64,000 nucleotides of DNA, taken from the NCBI RefSeq assembly GCF_030684315.1, contig NC_081358.1:121433031-121497030 (forward strand), in the 5' to 3' direction. The first letter of the stretch is position 1. The number at the start of each line of letters is the position of its first letter. A program made the translations under genes and the position numbers. This document shows positions 19,015 to 56,956 of this stretch, in pieces. This DNA comes from Stegostoma tigrinum (taxonomy: Eukaryota). The notes beneath the pieces are model-generated. The model saw nothing but the letters and a program-made list of their open reading frames with translations, did not search any database and was not told where the DNA came from.

Positions 19015-19600
19015 TAGAGTCATACAGCACAGAAAAGATCCTTCGGTCTGACCCGTCAATACCAACCAACTTTTTCCAAACTAATCTTATCCTACGTGCT
19101 TGTGCTTGGCCCATATCCCTCTAATTTTTTCTTATTCATGCACTTGTATGTCTTTTATATGTTGTAATTGTACCTGTGTTAAAACGGAAGTTGCTGCACA
19201 AGCTCAGCAGGTCTGGCAGCATCTGTGAAGAAAAGAATCAGACTTAATGTATTGGGTGCAGTAACCCTTCTTCAGAACAGTTCTGAGGAAGTGTCACAGG
19301 ACCTGAAACATTAACTCTGATTTTTTTCTTCAAAGATGCTACCAGACCTGCTAAGATCTTGCAGCAACTTCTGTTTTTGTTTCTGATTTACAGCATCTGC
19401 AGTTTTTTAAGAGTTTATTCTATGTTAAAATATTGCCCCTTAGGTTCCTTTGAAATCATTCTTCGCTCACCTTAAAAATATGCCTCCGAGTTTTGAACTG
19501 CACCACCACAGGAAAAAAATCTTTGCTTTTCACCTTTTCTATGCCCCTCACTATTTTACAAATCTCTATAAAGGTCACTCCTCAACCTCCTAGGCTCCAC
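19015..19600 (-). mobile_element. CR1 3' fragment interrupted by the PLE fold-back at 19185-19419
   Basis: CR1 3' UTR and ORF2 end on both sides of the insert. Confidence 0.7.
19185..19419. mobile_element. PLE family-2 fold-back element with HHR motifs on both strands
   Basis: Inverted arms centred at 19279 (cagaac-a-gttctg); plus-strand agtt-CTGAGGA...GAAA-CA-TT-aact at 19279-19316; degenerate minus-strand mirror copy. Confidence 0.8.
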
Positions 19601-24814: not shown

Positions 24815-25033
24815 TAAAAGCAAAGTGCTGGAAAAATCCAGTAGGTCCGGTAGCATCTGTGGAGAAAGAAACATAGTTAACATTTAAAGTCCAGCATGTT
24901 TCATGTTCATTCTGGATTTGAAGCATCGATTCTGTATTTCGCTCTTCAGATGCTGCCAGACCTGATGGGTTTCTGTAGCAGTTTCTACTTGCATTTCAGA
25001 TTTCCAGCATCTGCAGTATTTTGCTTTGATTTT
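24815..25033. mobile_element. Old PLE family-2-related fold-back
   Basis: Inverted arms (ggtccggtagcatctg / cagatgctgccagacc) with the apex near 24900, inside a decayed HHR. Confidence 0.65.
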
Positions 25034-38266: not shown

Positions 38267-39638
38267 TGTATATTCTTCTCTTCTAAATTATTTTCTCAAT
38301 TCATTTATGGGATTTGGCTGTCAGTTGGTAGTTTAACATATATAGTCCTTCCCCAATTGTCCTTGTAAAACTGGCGGCGAACTGCCTTCTTGAACCCTGT
38401 GGTCCTTGCAGCATTGCGATACCCATAGTGATGTTCTGAAGGAAATTCCAGGATTTTCACCCAGTGGCAGTGAAAGAACGGTGATGTGGTTGCAAGTTAG
38501 GATATGTGGCTTGGAAGGAAACTTTGAATTCTTTTATTGCAGAGGACTGTCAAGGCTGTGTCATTCAGTATATTCAAGGCTAAGATACACAGATTTCTAA
38601 TTAATACAGGAACCAAAGTTACAGGGAAAAGACAGGAAAGTAGATTTGAGGATTATCAGATCTCACTGAATTCACCCGATGGGCTAAATGACCTAATTCT
38701 GCTCCTACATCTAATTATCTTAGTCTGTCCAGTACTGGAAGTTGTGTTACCAGCCTGTTGGCCCTTAGCTCTGAAATTTGCTTCTCAAACCTCTCCGCCT
38801 TTAAGACATTGCTGAAAATAAATCTCTTTGACCCTGCTTTTGACCATCTTCCCTAATAGCTACTATAGTGGCTTCATGATATATTTTATGTTCTGACAGC
38901 TTGGTGAAGTACCCTGGCGTTTTTTATTATATTAAAAGATATTATCTACATGTGATTTGCTGTTATTGGCTTGTCAGGAGTCAAAACATTGGAATGACGC
39001 AATGTCACTGTGTTTGGGAGGTGGAATTAATGTAAAGGGTGAAAGACAAAAGGGGGATGGTCAAGGTTAGGTTAGAGAATATGGAATAATGACCAATACA
39101 GTATAGTGACGCAGTAGCGAACAGAAAAATATCAACAAGGTGTATAAAGACTCAGTAACCAATAAAGATGATGATAAACAACATATGTTCAATCTAATAG
39201 AAGTGCAAAGACTCTAGAATTAGACAAAAAGGGACAAGAACATAAATGGTAATGGATAGTGTTTGGCAATAAAGTCTTAGCGCAGCTGCGTGGGATAGGT
39301 TGGTGAGAAAGGAGAAAACCACCAATAACTGATTGAGGTTTCAGCACAGAAAATATTATATAGCCCTTTTCTTTTGATTGCAACACTCTCAATTCCCATA
39401 ATTTGCTAGAAGGCAACATTACTGCCCATCTTAACAGAAGAAGCTAGGCTGCAGCTCAGGAATTAGTGACAAAAAAGCTTTGTTCAGGAACTGTACTGTT
39501 AAATATTAAATCTTGAGTTCAGTCAAAATACAGGCAAGGGTAGAGCTTCAGTCAGAGACTTTATTTCTACATACAGCTAAGTAACTTTCTACTTTGTTTA
39601 TTCACTTGAAAATTGTCTGGTAGTGCTACATTATCCTG

Positions 39639-40226
39639 AGATAATGGGAACTGCAGATGCTGGAGAATTCCAAGATAATAAAATGTGAGGCTGGATGAAC
39701 ACAGCAGGCCAAGCAGCATCTCAGGAGCACAAAAGCTGACGTTTCGGGCCTAGACCCTTCATCAGAGAGGGGGATGGGGAGAGGGAGCTGGAATAAATAG
39801 GGAGAGAGGGGGAGGCGGACCGAAGATGGAGAGTAAAGAAGATAGGTGGAGAGAGTATAGGTGGGGAGGTAGGGAGGGGATAGGTCAGTCCAGGGAAGAC
39901 GGACAGGTCAAGGAGGTGGGATGAGGTTAGTAGGTAGCTGGGGGTGCGGCTTGGTGTGGGAGGAAGGGATGGGTGAGAGGAAGAACCGGTTAGGGAGGCA
40001 GAGACAGGTTGGACTGGTTTTGGGATGCAGTGGGTGGGGGAGAAGAGCTGGGATGGTTGTGTGGTGCAGTGGGGGGAGGAGACGAACTAGGCTGGTTTAG
40101 GGATGCAGTAGGGGAAGGGGAGATTTTGAAACTGGTGAAGTCCACATTGATACCATATGGCTGCAGGGTTCCCAGGCGGAATATGAGTTGCTGTTCCTGC
40201 AAACTTCAGGTGGCATCATTGTGGCA
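39639..40226 (-). mobile_element. Young 5'-truncated PLE family-1 insertion (GIY-YIG C-terminus plus intact HHR 39736-39767) with perfect 14-bp TSD
   Basis: ORF 39990..40202 (QEQQLIFRLGTLQPYGINVDF); TSD GCTACATTATCCTG at 39625-39638 and 40227-40240. Confidence 0.9.
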
Positions 40227-40414
40227 GCTACATTATCCTGCTTTCTTTCTAAGAAAATAAATCTCATGCAGAGAGAAAATCTGGTTCCAATACTTCAGGT
40301 TTTGTTATTTGTTCATGGGATGTCACTGGCTGGGCCAAAATTTGTTGCCCATCCCTAATTCCTCGAGAAGATTTTGTTTGGTTACCTTCTTGAACCACTG
40401 CGGTCCTTGGCATG

Positions 40415-40613
40415 AGATATAATGGGAACTGCAGATGCTCGAGAATCCGAGATAACAAAGTGTGGAGCTGGATGAACACAGCAGGCCAAGCAGCATATTA
40501 GGAGCACAAAAGCTGACGTTTCAGGACGAGACCCTTCATCAGAAACGTCAGCTTTTGTGCTCCCAAGATGCTGCTTGGCCTGCTGTGTTCATCCAGCTCC
40601 ACACTTCGTTATC
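40415..40613. mobile_element. PLE family-1 fold-back element with TSD, inserted in an older LINE tail
   Basis: ~75-bp near-perfect inverted arms turning at the HHR (…cccttcatcag|aaacgtcagc…); TSD g(c/t)ggtccttggcatg at 40400-40414 and 40614-40628. Confidence 0.88.
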
Positions 40614-42384
40614 GTGGTCCTTGGCATGTTGGGTACACAGGCTGTGCTGTTAGGGACGGATGTCCAGGCTTTTGACTAGCAACAGTGCATGGACAATGTT
40701 GTTGTAAATGAAGGTGATGTGTGACTTCAAGAGGAACTTGTTTGTGATGATAGTGCACATACTTGCTGTTGTAGTCTTTCAAGTAGTTGAGGTTTCGGGG
40801 TTTAAAAAGTACAGTCCAAGGAGCCTTGGTTTATTTTCCTCCATTGTATTTCCCCATGTTAAATAGTAATTTTTAATCCTGAAGGGAGCTGTGAACTATT
40901 TCACTCTATTGCTACACAAAGCTTCACAGCCACTCTTGCCATGTAATGTTTTACATTCCAAAGTGTCAGTCAAGTTCTTTCAAAAGTTCTGCGGAAGATG
41001 GTTTGCAAACCACAGACAGCATACTACTCACTTGAAACCACAGAAATAATTTCAAAAATGGTTCTTCCGCCAGATAACTGGAAACACAAAAGTTATAATT
41101 AACATTTCCCCCTCAGAAAAATATGATTTGATTTAATCAAGAATGAAAATATTCATAAATCAAGAAGTGAAAAGAATATATTAAAATGGATGGTCAGTGC
41201 GGATTTCAAAGTGGAAATTCCTGCTTGGCGAACATAACTGCATTCTCTGGGAGAAGGCCAGGAGATGGTCTACTGTAGATGGATTTTGTCTAGAATTCCT
41301 AAAGGCTTCCGATAAACTGAGAAGTAATTGTTGAATGAGTAAAGTTACAGCATTCAGGGGTGAAGGAGGGAAAGGGTTATAAGACAGGGGTCATTTTTGA
41401 ACCACAGGAAGATCCTGGAATGGAGAAAAACTTGAGCACAGAAAAGAATGCCCTAGAAATGTTTCACTTGGTCATCATCAAATTTATCAATTAATGCTAA
41501 AACAGCTGTGTTCTCCATAATGTTCAATACTGCATCCGTTAGCACGAGTCGTAAGGAACTGTTAGCAACACAAGTCAGCAACTTAAAAAAGATTGGCAAA
41601 AAATTAGGATGAAAAGCCTCATGTCTCTCATGTCTTCAAAATGTCTATGGAAGCTGGATTACTTATGCACAAGAACTGTACCTGTAACTTTCTACAGAAA
41701 ATTAACTCACGAATTAAACATTTTCAAATAAAAATGCAAACATATTTTGAACACTTATTTGTCTCTGCTTATCCTCTCTCATTTCAGGGGCACTTTTCAA
41801 ATGTTTCTTTCATGTGTCTTTTCCTTTCTAATCTCGTTCAGTCTCTCAGAAGATTCTTTTCTACAACCTAATTTTCTATTTGATTCACAATATAGTACTA
41901 TAGAGTGGATCATGTTACACAGAAGCATGGTTTCCTTGATGGTTACATCAGCTTAGAAATCAATCAAAGTTCTGGATGTTAGCCAAAGCACCCATTCATT
42001 TTTACCCTTTTGGATTTGTTGGTGATGCAATATTTGGCAACCAAGAACACAGGATGATTGTGTTACATGGTAGCAACACAGGAATCCGGTTAGGAGCAGT
42101 ACGTAGCAAGTCGATAGCACCATGAGTCAGAACAGGAGGAATACATACCAGATGGGGATCACGGAAATGGGTGAGAAGAAACAAAAATCCAACAGCAGTT
42201 CTACAGGAAACCATGAGTTATTCGGCTGTTGAATGTTACTTCAGCCTCAACAAAAATATTACTTCCAAATCTGAGCATCATAGTTAGAAATGACGAAATT
42301 AGAGAGTGTGCAAGAAAGATTCAATAGTTCCAGGAATGAGTAACTTCCATTACATGAAAGACTAGAGTAGTTGGGAAAGTGAAG

Positions 42385-49389: not shown

Positions 49390-49570
49390 AATAAAAATCT
49401 GAAATAACTGCGGATGCTAGACGTCAGAAAACAGAAATTTGTGGAAAAGCTTAGCAGGTCTGAGCATCTGTGGAGAACTCAGTGAGTCACTGGACCTGAA
49501 ACATTAACTCCTGCTTTGTCTCCACAGGTGCTGCCAGACCTGCTGAGATTTTCCAGCAATTTCTGTTTTC
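49390..49570. mobile_element. PLE family-2 fold-back
   Basis: Inverted arms (cagcaggtctg..catctgtggaga / tctccacaggtgctgccagacctgctg); right arm starts in HHR stem II (gtcactggacctgaaacattaac). Confidence 0.7.
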
Positions 49571-49932
49571 ATCACTCAACTTCCGCCATCTACAATCCAA
49601 CCCAACCACCCAAGACATTTTTCCATCCTCACCCTTGTCTGCCTTCCGGAGAGACCATTCTCTCATTGACTCCCTTGTCTGCTCCACACTCGCCTCCAAC
49701 CCCACCACACCCAGCACCTTCCCCTGCAACCGCAGGAAGTGCTACACTTGCCCCAGCACCTCTTCCCTCAGCCCCATCCCAGGCCCCAAGATGACTTTCC
49801 ATATTAAGCAGATGTTCACCTGCACATCTGCCAATGTAGTACACTGTATCCACTGTACTCGGTGTGGCTTCCTCTACATTGGGGAAACCAAGCGGAGGCT
49901 TGGGACCGCTTTGCAGAACACCTCCACTCGGT
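49571..49932 (+). mobile_element. PLE (Neptune-like) linker and GIY-YIG fragment
   Basis: ORF 49635..50084: CNRRKCYTC...FTCTSANVVHCIHCTRCGFLYIGETKRRLG. Confidence 0.85.
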
Positions 49933-49935
49933 ATC

Positions 49936-50886
49936 GGGGCAGGTGTAGCACTTGCTTCGGTTGCAGGAAGTGCCAGGGGTGGTGGGGCTGGAGGGGAGTG
50001 TGGAGCAGACAAGGGAGTCACGCACAGAGTAGTCCCTGCAGAAAGCACATAAGGGTGGGGAGGGAAAAAAAATGTCTTTGGTAGTGGCGTCAGATTGCAG
50101 ATGGCAGAAATATTGGAGGATGATGCGTTGGATTTGGAGGTCGGTGGGGTGGTACATGAGGACAAGGGGGATTTTGTTTTGGTTATTATTGCAGATCAGG
50201 GATGTGAAGGATGAGTTGCAGGAAATGTGGGAGGCATGGTCGAGGGCATTTTCGATTACTGTGGTGGGGAAGTTGCGGTTCTTGAAAAAAGAGGGCATCT
50301 GGGATGTTCAGGAGTTGAATGCCTCATCTTGGGAGCAGACGCGGTGGAGGCGAAGTAATTGGGAATAGGAGATGGCCTTTTTACAGGAAGGTGGGTAAGA
50401 GGAGGAATATTCTCGGTAGCTGTGGGAGTTGCTAGGCTTAAATGGATATCGGTTTCCAGGGGATGCCTGAGATGGAGACTTAGAGGTCCAGGAAGGTGAG
50501 GGATGTGTTGGATATGGTCCAGGTGAACTTGAGGTTGGGGTGGAAGGTGTTAATGAAGTGGATGAACTGTTCGAGCTCCTCATGGGAACACGAGGCAGCA
50601 CCAAAACAGTCATCAATGTTACAGAGGAAGACCCTGGGATAGGGCCAGTGTAGCTTTGGAAGCGGGATTGTTCCACGTAACCTACAAAGAGGCAGGCATA
50701 GCTTGGGCCCATGCAGGTATCCATGGCCACCTCCTTTGTCTGTAGAAAGCGGGAGGAATTAAAGGAGAAGATGTTGAGGGTGAGCACAAGTTTGGATAAG
50801 CGGATGAGGGTGTCAGTGGAGGGGGGCTGGTCGGGACTGCGGGACAGGAAGAAGCGGAGCGTCTTTAGGCCATCTGCATGGGGAAT
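49936..50886 (-). mobile_element. PLE reverse transcriptase and thumb/linker fragment, decayed
   Basis: ORFs 50308..50787 (FLQTKEVAMDTCMGPSYACLFVGYVEQ) and 49816..50298; degenerate YIDD (NIDD) near 50610-50625. Confidence 0.85.
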
Positions 50887-51045: not shown

Positions 51046-51416
51046 AAGACTGGCAGATGATATCAATATTGCACAGATGTTTGGTTGTTTAAAACTAACA
51101 AGATACTGACTTTAGCCAACCAGCTCATGCCAACATATTAAATGTGACTCACTAGTTGACATTTGCTAAACAGTCCTGATTGTGCAAAAAGGTACGTCGA
51201 CCAACAACCAATTTTGAATGGTTATTCAGGTTCTCAGTGAGACATATTTGTGTGTACAGAAGCTACACATATTAATACACAGTGTCCTGTTCTTTGCTGA
51301 CAGAAAGTACATGTATTTTTTATTCATTCACGGCATCATTGACTGCTACCTTTTCCACTGCTTTCCTTCTACTGGTTTAGACTCTTTCCCTATCACTCTG
51401 TATTCTCCTTTTGTGC

Positions 51417-51620
51417 TAAATAAGAACAGAAAGAACTACGGATACTATAAATCAGAAACAAAAACAGAAGTTACTGCAAAAGCTCTGCAGGCTTGGCAGC
51501 TCTTGTGAAGAGAAATCAGAGTTGATGAGGAAGGATCACTGGGCTTGAAAAGTTAACTCTGACTTCTCGTCACAGATGCTGACAGAGCTGCTGACCTTTT
51601 ACAGTAACTTCTGCTTTTGT
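51417..51620. mobile_element. PLE family-2 fold-back with 14-bp TSD (one mismatch)
   Basis: TSD ttctccttttgtgc (51403-51416) and ttcttcttttgtgc (51621-51634); arms turn at 51523. Confidence 0.75.
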
Positions 51621-52984
51621 TTCTTCTTTTGTGCAGTGTGGATGTTGTTTTCTGTTTGGGTTGTTGTTTCTTGCCTATTGTCCTGATGAGAAACATCGAC
51701 AGAATGTGTCTTACTTCAGCAATACTCAGGTTCTAGACCACCAAAGGATCATTTGTCTTTGGAATTCTCTTTCACAGTGAGCAGTTGAGGCTGGGTCATT
51801 GAATACGAAGCTAGTTTTGAAATGTTTTTGATTGACAAGGGAATAAGGGATCATGAGGGTGCAGTTAGGAAAGTGAAGATAGTAAATCAGATTAGTCATG
51901 TACTTATTGAATAATGGCGCAGCCTAGATGGGCAGATTGGCCTACTTATGCCCCGCTTCCTTATGATTTTCTGGTTACTTCTCTGTTCATTCCCAATTGC
52001 CCTACAGTTTCCTTTCCTTCAAGTATGTATTTGATTCTCTTTAGAAAGTTACTATTCAGTCTGCTTCTGGCAATCTTTTCATAGTGCTTTCCCAACCATC
52101 ATAAACTAGTGCATCAAAAAAAAACTTCCCTTTAACCACACTGATGCTTTTGCCAGTTACTTTCAATTGATATTTTCTGGTTACGGGCATTCCAATGAGC
52201 AGCAACAGGTTATCCTTACTCCAAAATACTTCACAGTTTTGAACATCTCTACTAAGTGCCCTATTCACCTTCTGTGCTTCAAATTCAGTTTCTACAATAT
52301 AAAAATGAACAGATAATGCTGGTAATTCTCAGGTCTCGCAGTGTGTGTGCAGCGTAATGGAGCTGACATTTAAGTTGTTGACATTTTGTCAGAACCCAGC
52401 TACTTTATTCTTTCAAAGTAATTGATGCAATGTAATGAAGCAAAGGAAAAGGACTGTTAATTGTTGACCATAAGAGGAAATTCTCTCAGGCAATTGTTCC
52501 AGGACTGTGGTCATGCACGTTTATAACAGGCATGTTGAAACACAGAAAAATAAAAAGGCTGACTTTTGCCACAGGTGAGATGATCCTAATATTGGAATGA
52601 TTTGTGGCTTGGGAGCTTTGTGAATCTGTGGTTGTAACCTCTCTAGTGGAGGCTGTTTAACATGCTGCTTCCATAAGTTCTGGATGCTGTGTCCAGCACT
52701 GGGCTGGCTAGAACATCAGGAGGGCGAAAGAACTGAGGAGAAAGAATAGGAATATCCACACTACAAGAGGAGAGCACTGACCACTTGGCAGGAGACTCCA
52801 ATTGGTAGAGGCATTGCCATGGATAATAAACCAGTCAGCAACAACTGACAGTTAAATGCCAAGTCTTGTCAAATGTCAAACTAGACAGCTTGACTCTGGC
52901 TAAATAATTCCAAAAGAAATGCACCAGTGAATGGCTGTCACATTTTTTTATCTAGTTTAAACAGGAACAGTGCTTGAACATTGA

Positions 52985-53960: not shown

Positions 53961-54876
53961 CTAAAGTTAACATTACTTTATAAGACAACCCTTCTATTCC
54001 AGGAATCTGCCAAGTGAATTTTCTTTGAAATGCTTCCAATGCAATGATGTGGGATGTTGTACACTATAACTTCAATGTTTTCAGACAAAATCCAGGCATA
54101 CTCTTTGTAGTTAGAGTTTTATTTCAACCAACCACACACAATAAAATGCTCCATCCTTCTGGCTGACTCTTCTTTATATATACATTTTAATTCAATTAAC
54201 AAATTTACCCAGAACACCCCATTTGCCTCATTACCTTTAACTCCTAAATATTCAACATCCTACTAAAACAGTGAATAATAACATGGGATGGAGGAAGGGC
54301 AGGGGAGCAGTAGTGGGATGATTCTGTCAAAGAGCTGGTATAAGAATGATGAAATGAATTGCATCCTATAATGTTGCATGGTCCTAATCAGATTTATGAA
54401 GTTGAGAATAAATCACCATTTGGTGCAAATGAAATATTGATGCCATGTCATGCTGAAGTTGAGGTGCAGTCACCCAAAAACACCAACATGAGACCAGATC
54501 TAATGACACTGTTCTACAGCAAAGTCTGTAATGATTAACTCATCTGGCTAAAAGCAACTCTATTAGAAAAACAAACTTGGGGGTCAAAGCTACATGTGCT
54601 TTGAGCATGAAAAACAATATTATAAAACACCAAATATAAAAACCATGATGTAAAGCTAAACCATCAAAATCAGATCTGGCTTTAAGCTCTCAGTAAGGAT
54701 GCAAAAGATATTTCATAACCAACACACCTCTCACAAGCAGCTAAATACCAATATTTAAATTATGGTGCATTCTGCCAACTCTCTCATCCTGAATTTCAAT
54801 CAAGATACTCGCTTACTAGCTTTGATGGAGCATTTTGGACAGAGAGAGTCCCTTTGAATGGGTATATTTCAAACAG

Positions 54877-55034
54877 GGATAACAAGGTGTAGAGCTGGAT
54901 GAACACAGCAGGCCAAGCAGCATCAGAGGAGCTTTCCTGCTCCTCTGATGCTGCTTGGTCTGCTGTGTTCATCCAGCTCTACACCTTGTTATCTCAGATT
55001 CTCCAACATCCGAAGTTCCTACTATCTCTGATAC
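54877..55034. mobile_element. PLE family-1 fold-back with perfect 13-bp TSD
   Basis: ~55-bp near-perfect inverted arms; TSD ATATTTCAAACAG at 54864-54876 and 55035-55047. Confidence 0.88.
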
Positions 55035-55319
55035 ATATTTCAAACAGAAAAGGCTTGCTTGAATGACTGACCCAGTCCCAATTGTTGAAAACAGGTATTT
55101 ATCCAGGATCATTGGAGTTGGAGTCGCATTGCTTAACATTAACACAACATTTAACAGTGGACAGCTAAAAACAAGTGGGAAATCTTGGTTAGGTATTAAT
55201 GACCAGGTGGGCAAGAAGGAATAAGTTTAGAGAAGATGTGAAGAAAATATTTTTCACCCCAACAATGTGGGAATCTGGAACTCACTGTCTATAAGCATGG
55301 TAGGGTCAGAAACCCTCAG

Positions 55320-55601
55320 AGCACTAATGCAATATCCAGACATGCACTTGCGATGCCAAGGCATACAAGGCTTTGGGGTAACTATTGAAAAGTAGTATTA
55401 TTCGCTTACTAGCTTTGACGGAGCATTTTGGACAGAGAGAGTTCCTTTGAATGGGTATATTTCAAACAGGGATAACAAGGTGTAGAGCTGGATGAACACA
55501 GCAGGCCAAGCAGCATCATCGTAGCACTAATGCAGTATCCAGGTATGCACTTGTGATGCCAAGGCATACGAGGCCTTGGGGTAACTGTTGAATAGTAGTA
55601 T
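55320..55601 (+). repeat. 79-bp direct repeat bracketing a 117-bp copy of 54809-54925
   Basis: 55320-55398 matches 55523-55601 (8 mismatches); 55402-55518 matches 54809-54925 (2 mismatches). Confidence 0.9.
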
Positions 55602-56450: not shown

Positions 56451-56956
56451 AGAGATAACAAGGTGTAGAGCTGAATTAACGCAGCAGGCCACGCAGCATC
56501 AGAGGAGCAGAAAGGCTGACGTTTCGGGCCTAGACCTTTCATCAGAAATGGGGGAGGGGGAGGGGGTTCTGAAATAAATAGGGAGACAGAGGGAGGTGGA
56601 TAGAAGATGGATAGAGGAGAAGATAGGTGGAGAGGAGACAGACAGGTCAAAGTGGCAGGGATGGAGCCAGTAAAGGTGAGTGTAGGTGGGGAGTTTGGGA
56701 GGTCAGTCCATCCTCGCCTCTTTGACCTGTCTGCCTACTCTCCACCTATCTTCTCCTCCATCGATCTTCTATCCACCTCCCCCTCTCTCCCTATTTATTT
56801 CAGACACCCTTCTCCCACCTCCCCCATTTCTGAAGAAGGGTCTAGGCTCAAAACGTCAGCATTCCTGCTCCTCTGATGCGACTTGATCTGCTGTGTTCAT
56901 CCAGCTCTACACCTAGTTGTCTCAAATTCTCCAGCATCTGCAGTTCCTACTATCTC
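56451..56956. mobile_element. Long PLE family-1 fold-back inserted in Gypsy pol, with an HHR motif in each arm
   Basis: Arms ~56451-56700(-) and ~56710-56956(+); intact minus-strand HHR 56516-56545; plus-strand HHR 56830-56859 with GAAA>AAAA; degenerate TSD gcatatatttat / gcatttaattac. Confidence 0.85.

What the first reader, a model, noticed from the sequence alone, without database searches (positions are those of the whole stretch)
40400..40628. Fold-back hammerhead mini-elements inserted as single units
Seen: at least seven short palindromic units made of two inverted PLE 3' ends (19185, 24815, 40415, 49390, 51417, 54877, 56451), from two sequence families. Three are bracketed by clear 13-15 bp TSDs (40415, 51417, 54877), so each palindrome arrived in one event and is not two independent insertions. 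Established: PLE pseudo-LTRs carry minimal HHRs, and PLE copies often have inverted 5'-truncated segments. Inference: these are either a very frequent by-product of PLE integration (cDNA fold-back or twin priming) or a non-autonomous, rod-shaped, ribozyme-bearing element class that is remobilised, comparable to retrozymes or MITEs. Seven in 64 kb suggests a very large genomic copy number.
Basis: partly seen in the sequence, partly recalled or inferred. Interest (0 to 1): 0.7.

Follow-up and report, generated by a model that had tools for sequence, protein, structure and literature searches.

The report
Double-primed Penelope stubs record RNA ends
These ~200-base mirror-image inserts are real, very common stubs of a known Penelope-like jumping gene; each was likely built on landing from two short DNA copies of the element's RNA end rather than spreading as a hairpin unit, and their centres pile up at the predicted RNA start and, more weakly, at the predicted ribozyme cut.

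Summary
All seven palindromes exist. The focal one (40415-40613) has a 15-bp TSD, and a contig from a run under another organism code shows the empty site, so it arrived in one event. They are the shortest form of the known inverted insertion of endonuclease-bearing Penelope-like elements (PLEs). In 1.16 Mb there were 88 inverted pairs (118-2534 bp; about 230,000 genome-wide by extrapolation); 81 had one tailed and one tail-less arm. Identical apexes do recur (175 exact for the focal one), but on several subfamilies and with the tail on either arm, so they are junction hot spots, not a propagating hairpin family. Best model: both strands of a staggered cut prime cDNA at two start sites, and the two cDNA ends are joined. 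Arm ends pile up 1-5 nt upstream of the hammerhead core; in young copies they often carry an extra C (cap-like), which older copies lack. About 1,000 perfect palindromes turn at the predicted cleavage site, a hint of cleavage in vivo that lacks one control. Most minis lack two intact cores, and the rod fold masks the ribozyme. The scan noted the same thing before on other DNA of this and other genomes.

The parts
40400..40414 (+). Left target-site duplication (15 bp, 1 mismatch to the right copy)
   Evidence: single copy at the empty site in run X2
40415..40450 (-). PLE 'tail' (~36 nt between the two inferred reverse-transcription start sites), present on this arm only
   Evidence: family-A termini start at positions 1-4 or ~30-39
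40415..40545 (-). Long arm: family-A PLE terminus, ends at +31 from the predicted cleavage site, inside the hot spot
40515..40542 (-). Minimal type-I hammerhead core (predicted cut between 40515 and 40514 on the minus strand); stem II mutated; masked by the rod fold
   Evidence: read from sequence against PMC4209133; fold; no Rfam hit
40542..40545 (.). Apex: 4-nt overlap (microhomology) shared by the two arms
   Evidence: recurs at 175 exact 21-mer sites
40542..40613 (+). Short, tail-less arm: inverted second copy of the terminus, ends at +8, only the 3' half of the hammerhead core
40614..40628 (+). Right target-site duplication
54864..55047 (.). Family-A mini (older subfamily), arms end at -9 and 0, 3-nt overlap, perfect 13-bp TSD, no hammerhead core
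56452..56955 (.). Family-A inverted pair of the long class (arms end +185/+148), no clear TSD
19181..19419 (.). Family-B mini, both arms at the hot spot (+33/+35), probable 10-bp TSD
24826..25017 (.). Family-B mini, decayed (76-77% to references), no TSD found
49390..49572 (.). Family-B mini (arms end -12/+18), only a 6-bp flank match
51403..51634 (.). Family-B mini (arms end +4/+29) with 14-bp TSD
39625..40240 (-). Young single-armed family-A copy (588 bp) with 14-bp TSD; used as a reference for the parent element

Best explanation
The palindromes are very short inverted insertions of Penelope-like retrotransposon ends, each likely made anew at integration when both strands of a staggered cut prime DNA copies of the same end of the element's RNA and the two copies are then joined. 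Shown here: one-event arrival with 13-15-bp TSDs; one tailed plus one tail-less arm; a size continuum up to 2.5 kb; arms of one insert nearly always in the same length class and subfamily; junctions with short overlaps or inserted bases; a pile-up of arm ends 1-5 nt upstream of the hammerhead core. Taken from published in vitro work on another PLE (PMC11167929): nicking and extension of both strands, two internal start sites that define the tail, a predicted dimer. Inferred: the minis come from initiation near the RNA's 5' end, so reverse transcriptase runs off at the transcription start (+32, extra C opposite a cap in young copies) or, less often, at the ribozyme cut (0); host end-joining (recalled: polymerase-theta-like) fuses the two cDNA 3' ends; some inserts may finish by one cDNA snapping back and annealing to the other.
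For: 81 of 88 pairs tailed/tail-less; TSD score >=9 in 47 of 88 versus 0 of 400 shuffled flank pairs, mode 13-15 bp. Empty site. 59 of 60 family-A end pairs distinct; tailed arm longer in 18, tail-less longer in 30, within 3 nt in 12; both long 14, both short 46, mixed 0 (Fisher p 6e-14, cut-off chosen after seeing the data); ends at +29..+33: 30 of 66 at risk, 0.09 per nt versus about 0.01 before and 0.002-0.005 after +38; family B peaks at +29..+37. Arms agree at diagnostic sites (discordant 1 of 60 to 17 of 90, versus 18-41 expected at random; background 6%) and share rare bases (48 of 426 versus 11.3 expected). Of 41 exact-apex loci: tail on long arm 26, short arm 9, both 2, neither called 4; at least five subfamilies. 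6,986 loci with both arms at the 5' edge of the core. After +32 in young copies the next base is C in 50 of 74 junctions, and in 22 of 36 first classed as joined to unrelated DNA, versus 10 of 31 at a control position (by-eye tallies of the first 100 rows; Fisher p 0.03). 43 perfect palindromes at the cleavage site among the first 100 of 2,342 rows (about 1,000 loci), versus about 75 for another 4-nt-overlap junction (10 of 100 of 707). Parent element has RT (Pfam RVT_1, E 1e-5, below cut-off) and a GIY-YIG-type region with a CX4CxxC linker.
Against: No C excess in the older subfamily (22 of 100 after +32, 31 of 100 after +33). Several of the 22 'unrelated-DNA' C junctions proved on fetching to have a tiny second arm, a partner arm after an insert, or a C shared with the TSD, and 9 of 100 rows were long copies with C at +33, so the cap reading is suggestive only. 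In the unbiased sample there is no peak at the cleavage site (2 of 134 paired family-A ends at 0), and the palindrome there has a self-complementary 4-mer that could favour it without any cut; ends joined to unrelated DNA were about as common at -1 as at 0. One probable long/short pair with a TSD exists. Strict coupling of arm length is also what snap-back would give. A few pairs have arms of different subfamilies (e.g. L005, L012), so two RNAs or later conversion occur. The in vitro data are from a Poseidon-clade element, not this one. No RNA evidence was obtained.
Confidence: 0.8

Rival explanations
1. Snap-back plus annealing: both nicks prime, but one cDNA folds back on itself, is copied outward and then anneals to the other cDNA, so a single cDNA sets the apex.
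For: Explains why both arms are long or both short (14/46/0) and why arms share rare bases. Self-priming was proposed for rotifer PLEs (PMC3846280, passages).
Against: Needs loops of 380-480 nt in several long pairs. 38 of 70 minis have inserted bases and 6 are blunt rather than overlapping. Thousands of loci have both arms ending at the same ceiling. Arm discordance shows no inner-outer gradient (0.060-0.073).
Confidence: 0.25
2. SINE-like renewal at arm level: minis whose arm reaches +32 keep an internal promoter, are transcribed, and serve as templates in trans; the palindrome is rebuilt each time, so apexes stay diverse.
For: D. virilis Penelope has an internal promoter (PMC2377424, passages); pLTR sequences suffice for mobilisation in trans in rotifers; short arms outnumber long ones in all but the youngest subfamily; 34 of 50 family-A minis keep an arm to +28 or beyond, counting one or two full cores.
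Against: Every subfamily resolved has long copies as well; no mini-only lineage was seen among the family-A termini classed. The youngest subfamily is mostly long (42 long, 18 short arms). A hairpin transcript would bury the start sites.
Confidence: 0.15
3. A propagating rod-shaped ribozyme element (retrozyme- or MITE-like) copied as a unit with its apex.
For: The focal 199-bp architecture recurs at 40 of 40 scored loci and its apex at 175 exact sites.
Against: The set was selected for likeness. Same apex on five or more subfamilies with concordant arms and either tail side; no fixed left/right difference except two CpG columns forced by the search pattern; 59 of 60 end pairs distinct; the focal apex is roughly 0.1% of an estimated 140,000 family-A minis; only 14 of 70 minis hold two full cores and 23 none; no tandem organisation; core masked in the rod.
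Confidence: 0.05
4. The minis are remnants of longer inverted insertions shortened later by hairpin-driven central deletion.
For: Long inverted pairs with the same ends and TSDs exist; long palindromes are deletion-prone (recalled); short:long ratio rises with subfamily age.
Against: Deletion would not give a sharp ceiling at +30..+33 shared by single-armed copies, nor an extra C; near-identical young minis exist (97-100% to references).
Confidence: 0.1

Closest known systems
Inverted-pLTR insertions of EN+ Penelope-like elements (D. virilis Penelope; Adineta Pen2a; overview in PMC8557442 Fig. 2)
   Same: Head-to-head inverted 5'-truncated copy, 30-40-bp tail at one end only, TSD, hammerhead in the pLTR. 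Dual minimal hammerheads 100-700 bp apart on opposite strands were already noted in Schistosoma (PMC4209133).
   Different: Here the ORF-less minimal form dominates (about 186,000 minis by extrapolation), TSDs are 13-15 bp versus 8-10 bp in Adineta, and the ends pile up at defined positions; the published self-priming explanation does not fit the tail asymmetry.
Anolis Poseidon (PAc) in vitro reaction (PMC11167929)
   Same: Both strands nicked and extended, two start sites bounding the tail, start sites just inside the RNA 5' region near the hammerhead.
   Different: That paper (parts 1-3 of 4 read) does not treat inverted inserts and found no RNA-seq reads ending at the cleavage site; this element has the CX2-5CxxC linker of Neptune/Nematis, absent from Poseidon.
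L1 twin priming and cap-derived extra G (PMC11702581, passages)
   Same: Second target strand primes a second cDNA; discrete TSDs; inversion junction closed by end joining; extra base opposite the cap in full-length copies.
   Different: L1 segments are adjacent, non-overlapping parts of the RNA; here both arms copy the same stretch, giving a palindrome.
Non-LTR retrozymes (10.64898/2026.07.22.740005, parts 1-3 of 5; PMC4209133)
   Same: Non-coding, PLE pLTR-derived, carry type-I hammerheads.
   Different: Retrozymes are head-to-tail tandems with a core in each unit; these are head-to-head, often coreless, and the two cores lie on opposite strands, so no RNA strand holds two.

Membership tests
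EN+ PLE inverted insertion | Terminus belongs to an element with RT and C-terminal GIY-YIG endonuclease | tested here: met
   Long copies continue into RT and EN coding DNA; RVT_1 E 1.3e-5, below Pfam cut-off; the 121-aa EN fragment had no Pfam hit, EN motif read by eye
EN+ PLE inverted insertion | 30-40-bp tail on one end only | tested here: met
   81 of 88 pairs
EN+ PLE inverted insertion | Inverted 5'-truncated copy, whole unit inside one TSD | tested here: met
   47 of 88 versus 0 of 400 null; empty site
EN+ PLE inverted insertion | Minimal type-I hammerhead in the pLTR | tested here: met
   Core motifs and palindromic helix III read from sequence; no Rfam model hit; activity not tested
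Neptune/Nematis clade | CX2-5CxxC linker before GIY-YIG | tested here: met
   CX4CxxC in translations; definition
Neptune/Nematis clade | RT phylogeny placing it in the clade | not tested
Non-LTR retrozyme | Head-to-tail tandem units each with a full hammerhead | tested here: not met
   Head-to-head; 14 of 70 minis have two cores, on opposite strands
Non-LTR retrozyme | Self-cleavage and circular RNA | not testable with these tools
   No raw RNA run listed
MITE-like propagating unit | Homogeneous family with fixed length and centre descending from a master | tested here: not met
   59 of 60 end pairs distinct; identical apex on several subfamilies and either tail side
MITE-like propagating unit | Symmetric terminal inverted repeats with short fixed TSD | tested here: not met
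   Ends offset by the tail; TSD 10-18 bp
L1-type twin priming | Inverted segments come from adjacent, non-overlapping RNA parts | tested here: not met
   Both arms cover the same ~70-100 nt

The most novel reading that the evidence does not exclude
The minis are a fossil 5'-end map of PLE RNA: one pile-up marks a capped start just upstream of the hammerhead and another proves that minimal hammerheads cut in the germ line; and minis that keep the internal promoter are themselves transcribed and re-mobilised as SINE-like arms, rebuilding a new palindrome at every landing, a non-autonomous class whose inherited unit is the arm and not the hairpin.
Probability: 0.15. Interest if true: 0.75.

Novelty: new variant of a known kind. 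Interest (0 to 1): 0.45.

Why it matters
How PLEs make their inverted ends and one-sided tail, and whether their minimal hammerheads cut in vivo, are open questions in the papers read (PMC8557442, PMC11167929, PMC4209133). Some 200,000 short inverted inserts in one genome give a large natural data set. It argues against plain self-priming, fits two-strand priming, predicts a transcription start 1-5 nt upstream of the core and hints at cleavage in vivo, each testable by CAGE, 5'-end sequencing or a two-RNA in vitro assay. It also warns that these hairpins mimic miRNA precursors and MITEs in annotation.

Tried and rejected
Simple fold-back of the tailed cDNA: rejected. L1-type twin priming: rejected (arms overlap on the RNA). 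Single master for the focal apex: rejected; the 40 top hits looked like a family only because they were selected by likeness. A C-at-+33 subfamily as the source of the extra C: the 9 long copies fetched fall in several haplotypes, so not one lineage, but not excluded. Cap signature in the older subfamily: not found. Peak at the cleavage site in the unbiased sample: not found; seen only genome-wide. Search for a tandem copy running through the tail into the ORF start: none in 1.16 Mb. RNA evidence: no RNA holder listed; runs X1 and X2 are only guessed RNA and are contigs, so they say nothing on starts, editing or circles. Rfam: only sub-threshold hairpin matches. Scan notes by sequence: nothing. 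Limits of the census: references were real copies from the sample; family-B references were only 330-360 bp, so long B pairs were not resolved; one duplicated locus (L040) and edge-touching pairs were dropped from the arm-length tests; 10 of 120 requested stretches did not exist.

Full report
Observation. The focal unit 40415-40613 is a long arm (131 nt) and an inverted short arm (72 nt, 96% complementary) overlapping by 4 nt, inside a 15-bp duplication with one mismatch. It folds as a rod (z -22.9). The other six units are also inverted pairs, three of family A and four of family B in all. One contig of run X2, listed under another organism code, joins the two flanks with a single target copy; it is a single contig at depth 6.6 and part of the left flank is repetitive, but 232 nt of right flank also align. 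The window lies in a 3.2-Gb assembly; earlier scan notes call the animal a shark, which I did not test.

Parent element. Long copies run from this terminus into coding DNA with an RT (YIDD; Pfam RVT_1 E 1.3e-5, below cut-off) and a GIY-YIG-type region preceded by a CX4CxxC linker, the mark of Neptune/Nematis PLEs (PMC8557442, passages). The terminus holds a minimal type-I hammerhead as described in PMC4209133 (parts 1-2 of 4). Positions below count from its predicted cut (0); the core's first base is +28 in family A and +30 in B.

Census. In 110 ten-kb stretches at arbitrary round positions plus the window (1.164 Mb) I found 375 termini and 88 inverted pairs of 118-2534 bp; 81 had one tailed and one tail-less arm; 47 had a TSD score of 9 or more against 0 of 400 shuffled flank pairs, mode 13-15 bp. 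Outside the window this extrapolates to about one million termini, 230,000 pairs and 186,000 minis. This is the published PLE anatomy: an inverted 5'-truncated copy, a 30-40-bp tail at one end, a TSD (PMC8557442; PMC3846280, passages). Opposite-strand hammerhead pairs 100-700 bp apart were noted in Schistosoma.

Is the hairpin a propagating family? A likeness search returned 40 scored loci, all full-length, and the apex recurs exactly 71 times as a 26-mer and 175 times as a 21-mer. But among 41 exact-apex loci the tail lies on the long arm in 26, the short arm in 9, both in 2 and was not called in 4; within the 24 taken from the unbiased pattern search it is 9 versus 9. Both arms usually belong to the same one of five or more subfamilies, and there is no fixed left/right difference apart from two CpG columns forced by the pattern. 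In the unbiased sample 59 of 60 family-A end pairs differ. Other apexes recur too: 10 copies for the 54878 apex and 7 of the first 50 of 6,986 loci with both arms at the core's 5' edge. Only 14 of 70 minis have two full cores and 23 have none; in the rod the core is base-paired. Recurrence is therefore convergence on hot spots with short overlaps.

Mechanism. The tail-less arm reaches further in for 30 of 60 pairs, the tailed arm for 18, which excludes copying of the tailed cDNA alone. Both arms cover the same RNA stretch, unlike L1 twin priming (PMC11702581, passages). The Anolis PLE protein nicks and extends both strands and starts at two internal sites that bound the tail (PMC11167929, parts 1-3 of 4); two such cDNAs joined end to end give exactly this product. 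Junctions of 70 minis show overlap in 26, blunt ends in 6 and inserted bases in 38, as end-joining would (recalled). Some apparent single arms carry a second arm of only 4-7 nt. Arms are coupled: 14 both long, 46 both short, none mixed (cut-off post hoc; one probable mixed pair among five unresolved ones). They agree at diagnostic sites and share rare bases (48 of 426 versus 11.3 expected). This points to one RNA or one source locus per insert, in two classes; snap-back followed by annealing remains a live rival.

RNA ends. Ends pile up at +29..+33 in A (30 of 66 at risk; about nine-fold above the rate before) and +29..+37 in B (14 of 16). In young A copies the base after +32 is C in 50 of 74 junctions, and in 22 of 36 first classed as joined to unrelated DNA, against 10 of 31 at a control position (by-eye tallies of the first 100 rows, after dropping 26 run-on rows; p 0.03). 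An extra base opposite the cap marks full-length L1 copies, so a capped start at +32 is the likely cause; Penelope has an internal promoter (PMC2377424, passages). Against it: no C excess in the older subfamily, and on fetching 22 of these loci several Cs could come from a tiny partner arm or the TSD. Prompted by earlier scan notes I tested the cut site: 2,342 matches end at 0, against 290 at -1 and 707 at +1; 70 of the first 100 rows are perfect palindromes (43 loci, about 1,000 genome-wide), versus about 75 for another 4-nt-overlap junction. Ends joined to unrelated DNA drop after 0 (about 12 of 100 of 2,342 at 0, 55 of 100 of 290 at -1, 8 of 100 of 707 at +1; by eye). This hints at cleaved templates, but the unbiased sample shows no peak and the control with other self-complementary 4-mers was not run.

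Novelty. Searches found the anatomy in print but no paper on this mini class, the arm coupling or the end pile-ups; the library is partial, Repbase/Dfam and the 2005-2006 PLE reviews were not consulted, and I read no supplements (Fig. S2 of PMC11167929 and the closed supplements of the retrozyme preprint, parts 1-3 of 5 read, may bear on this). The scan's own notes describe the same inserts and a similar reading in this and other genomes; they are not independent support. My two-strand and +32 readings predate those look-ups; the cut-site test follows from them.

Verdict. Real, abundant, single-event inserts; a minimal variant of a known PLE product, not a new element class; useful as a record of PLE mechanism. 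Interest 0.45.

Noticed in passing
window 49573-50700: Beside the 49390 mini, PLE endonuclease-coding DNA runs sense to ~49935 and then antisense, an inversion with the 3' sides facing inward and no termini, the opposite of the usual arrangement.
   Followed up: partly
window 54840-54932 and 55430-55526: The left flank and left arm of the 54878 mini are duplicated about 590 bp downstream, a local duplication after insertion.
   Followed up: no
G000:C1:4383880-4384014, C1:149364511-149364689 and other rows: Head-to-tail repeats whose unit runs from the predicted cut site back to a start site (about 100-bp and 48-bp periods); may reflect template jumps from cleaved RNA, and resemble coreless retrozyme arrays.
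   Followed up: no
L191-L199: Long copies of several haplotypes carry C instead of G at +33, possibly cDNAs that took the extra C and then jumped to a longer template.
   Followed up: partly
tailed family-A ends in L031-L140: Bases just outside the tail end are biased (T/C/A at -5 to -3), suggesting the outer start site varies by a few bases or uses short target homology.
   Followed up: partly
L005, L012, L144: Pairs whose arms differ at three linked diagnostic sites, suggesting two source RNAs or later conversion.
   Followed up: partly
L038:5562-5793 and L040:8216-8447; L168 and L169: Identical or near-identical minis with shared flanks 20-50 kb apart: segmental duplicates, not new insertions.
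   Followed up: partly
window 54889-54982 and 56608-56763: The palindromes draw sub-threshold Rfam miRNA-precursor hits (E down to 4e-9), an annotation trap.
   Followed up: no
L077:2221-5900, minus strand: A 1,219-codon open frame, apparently another retroelement, seen in the ORF scan.
   Followed up: no
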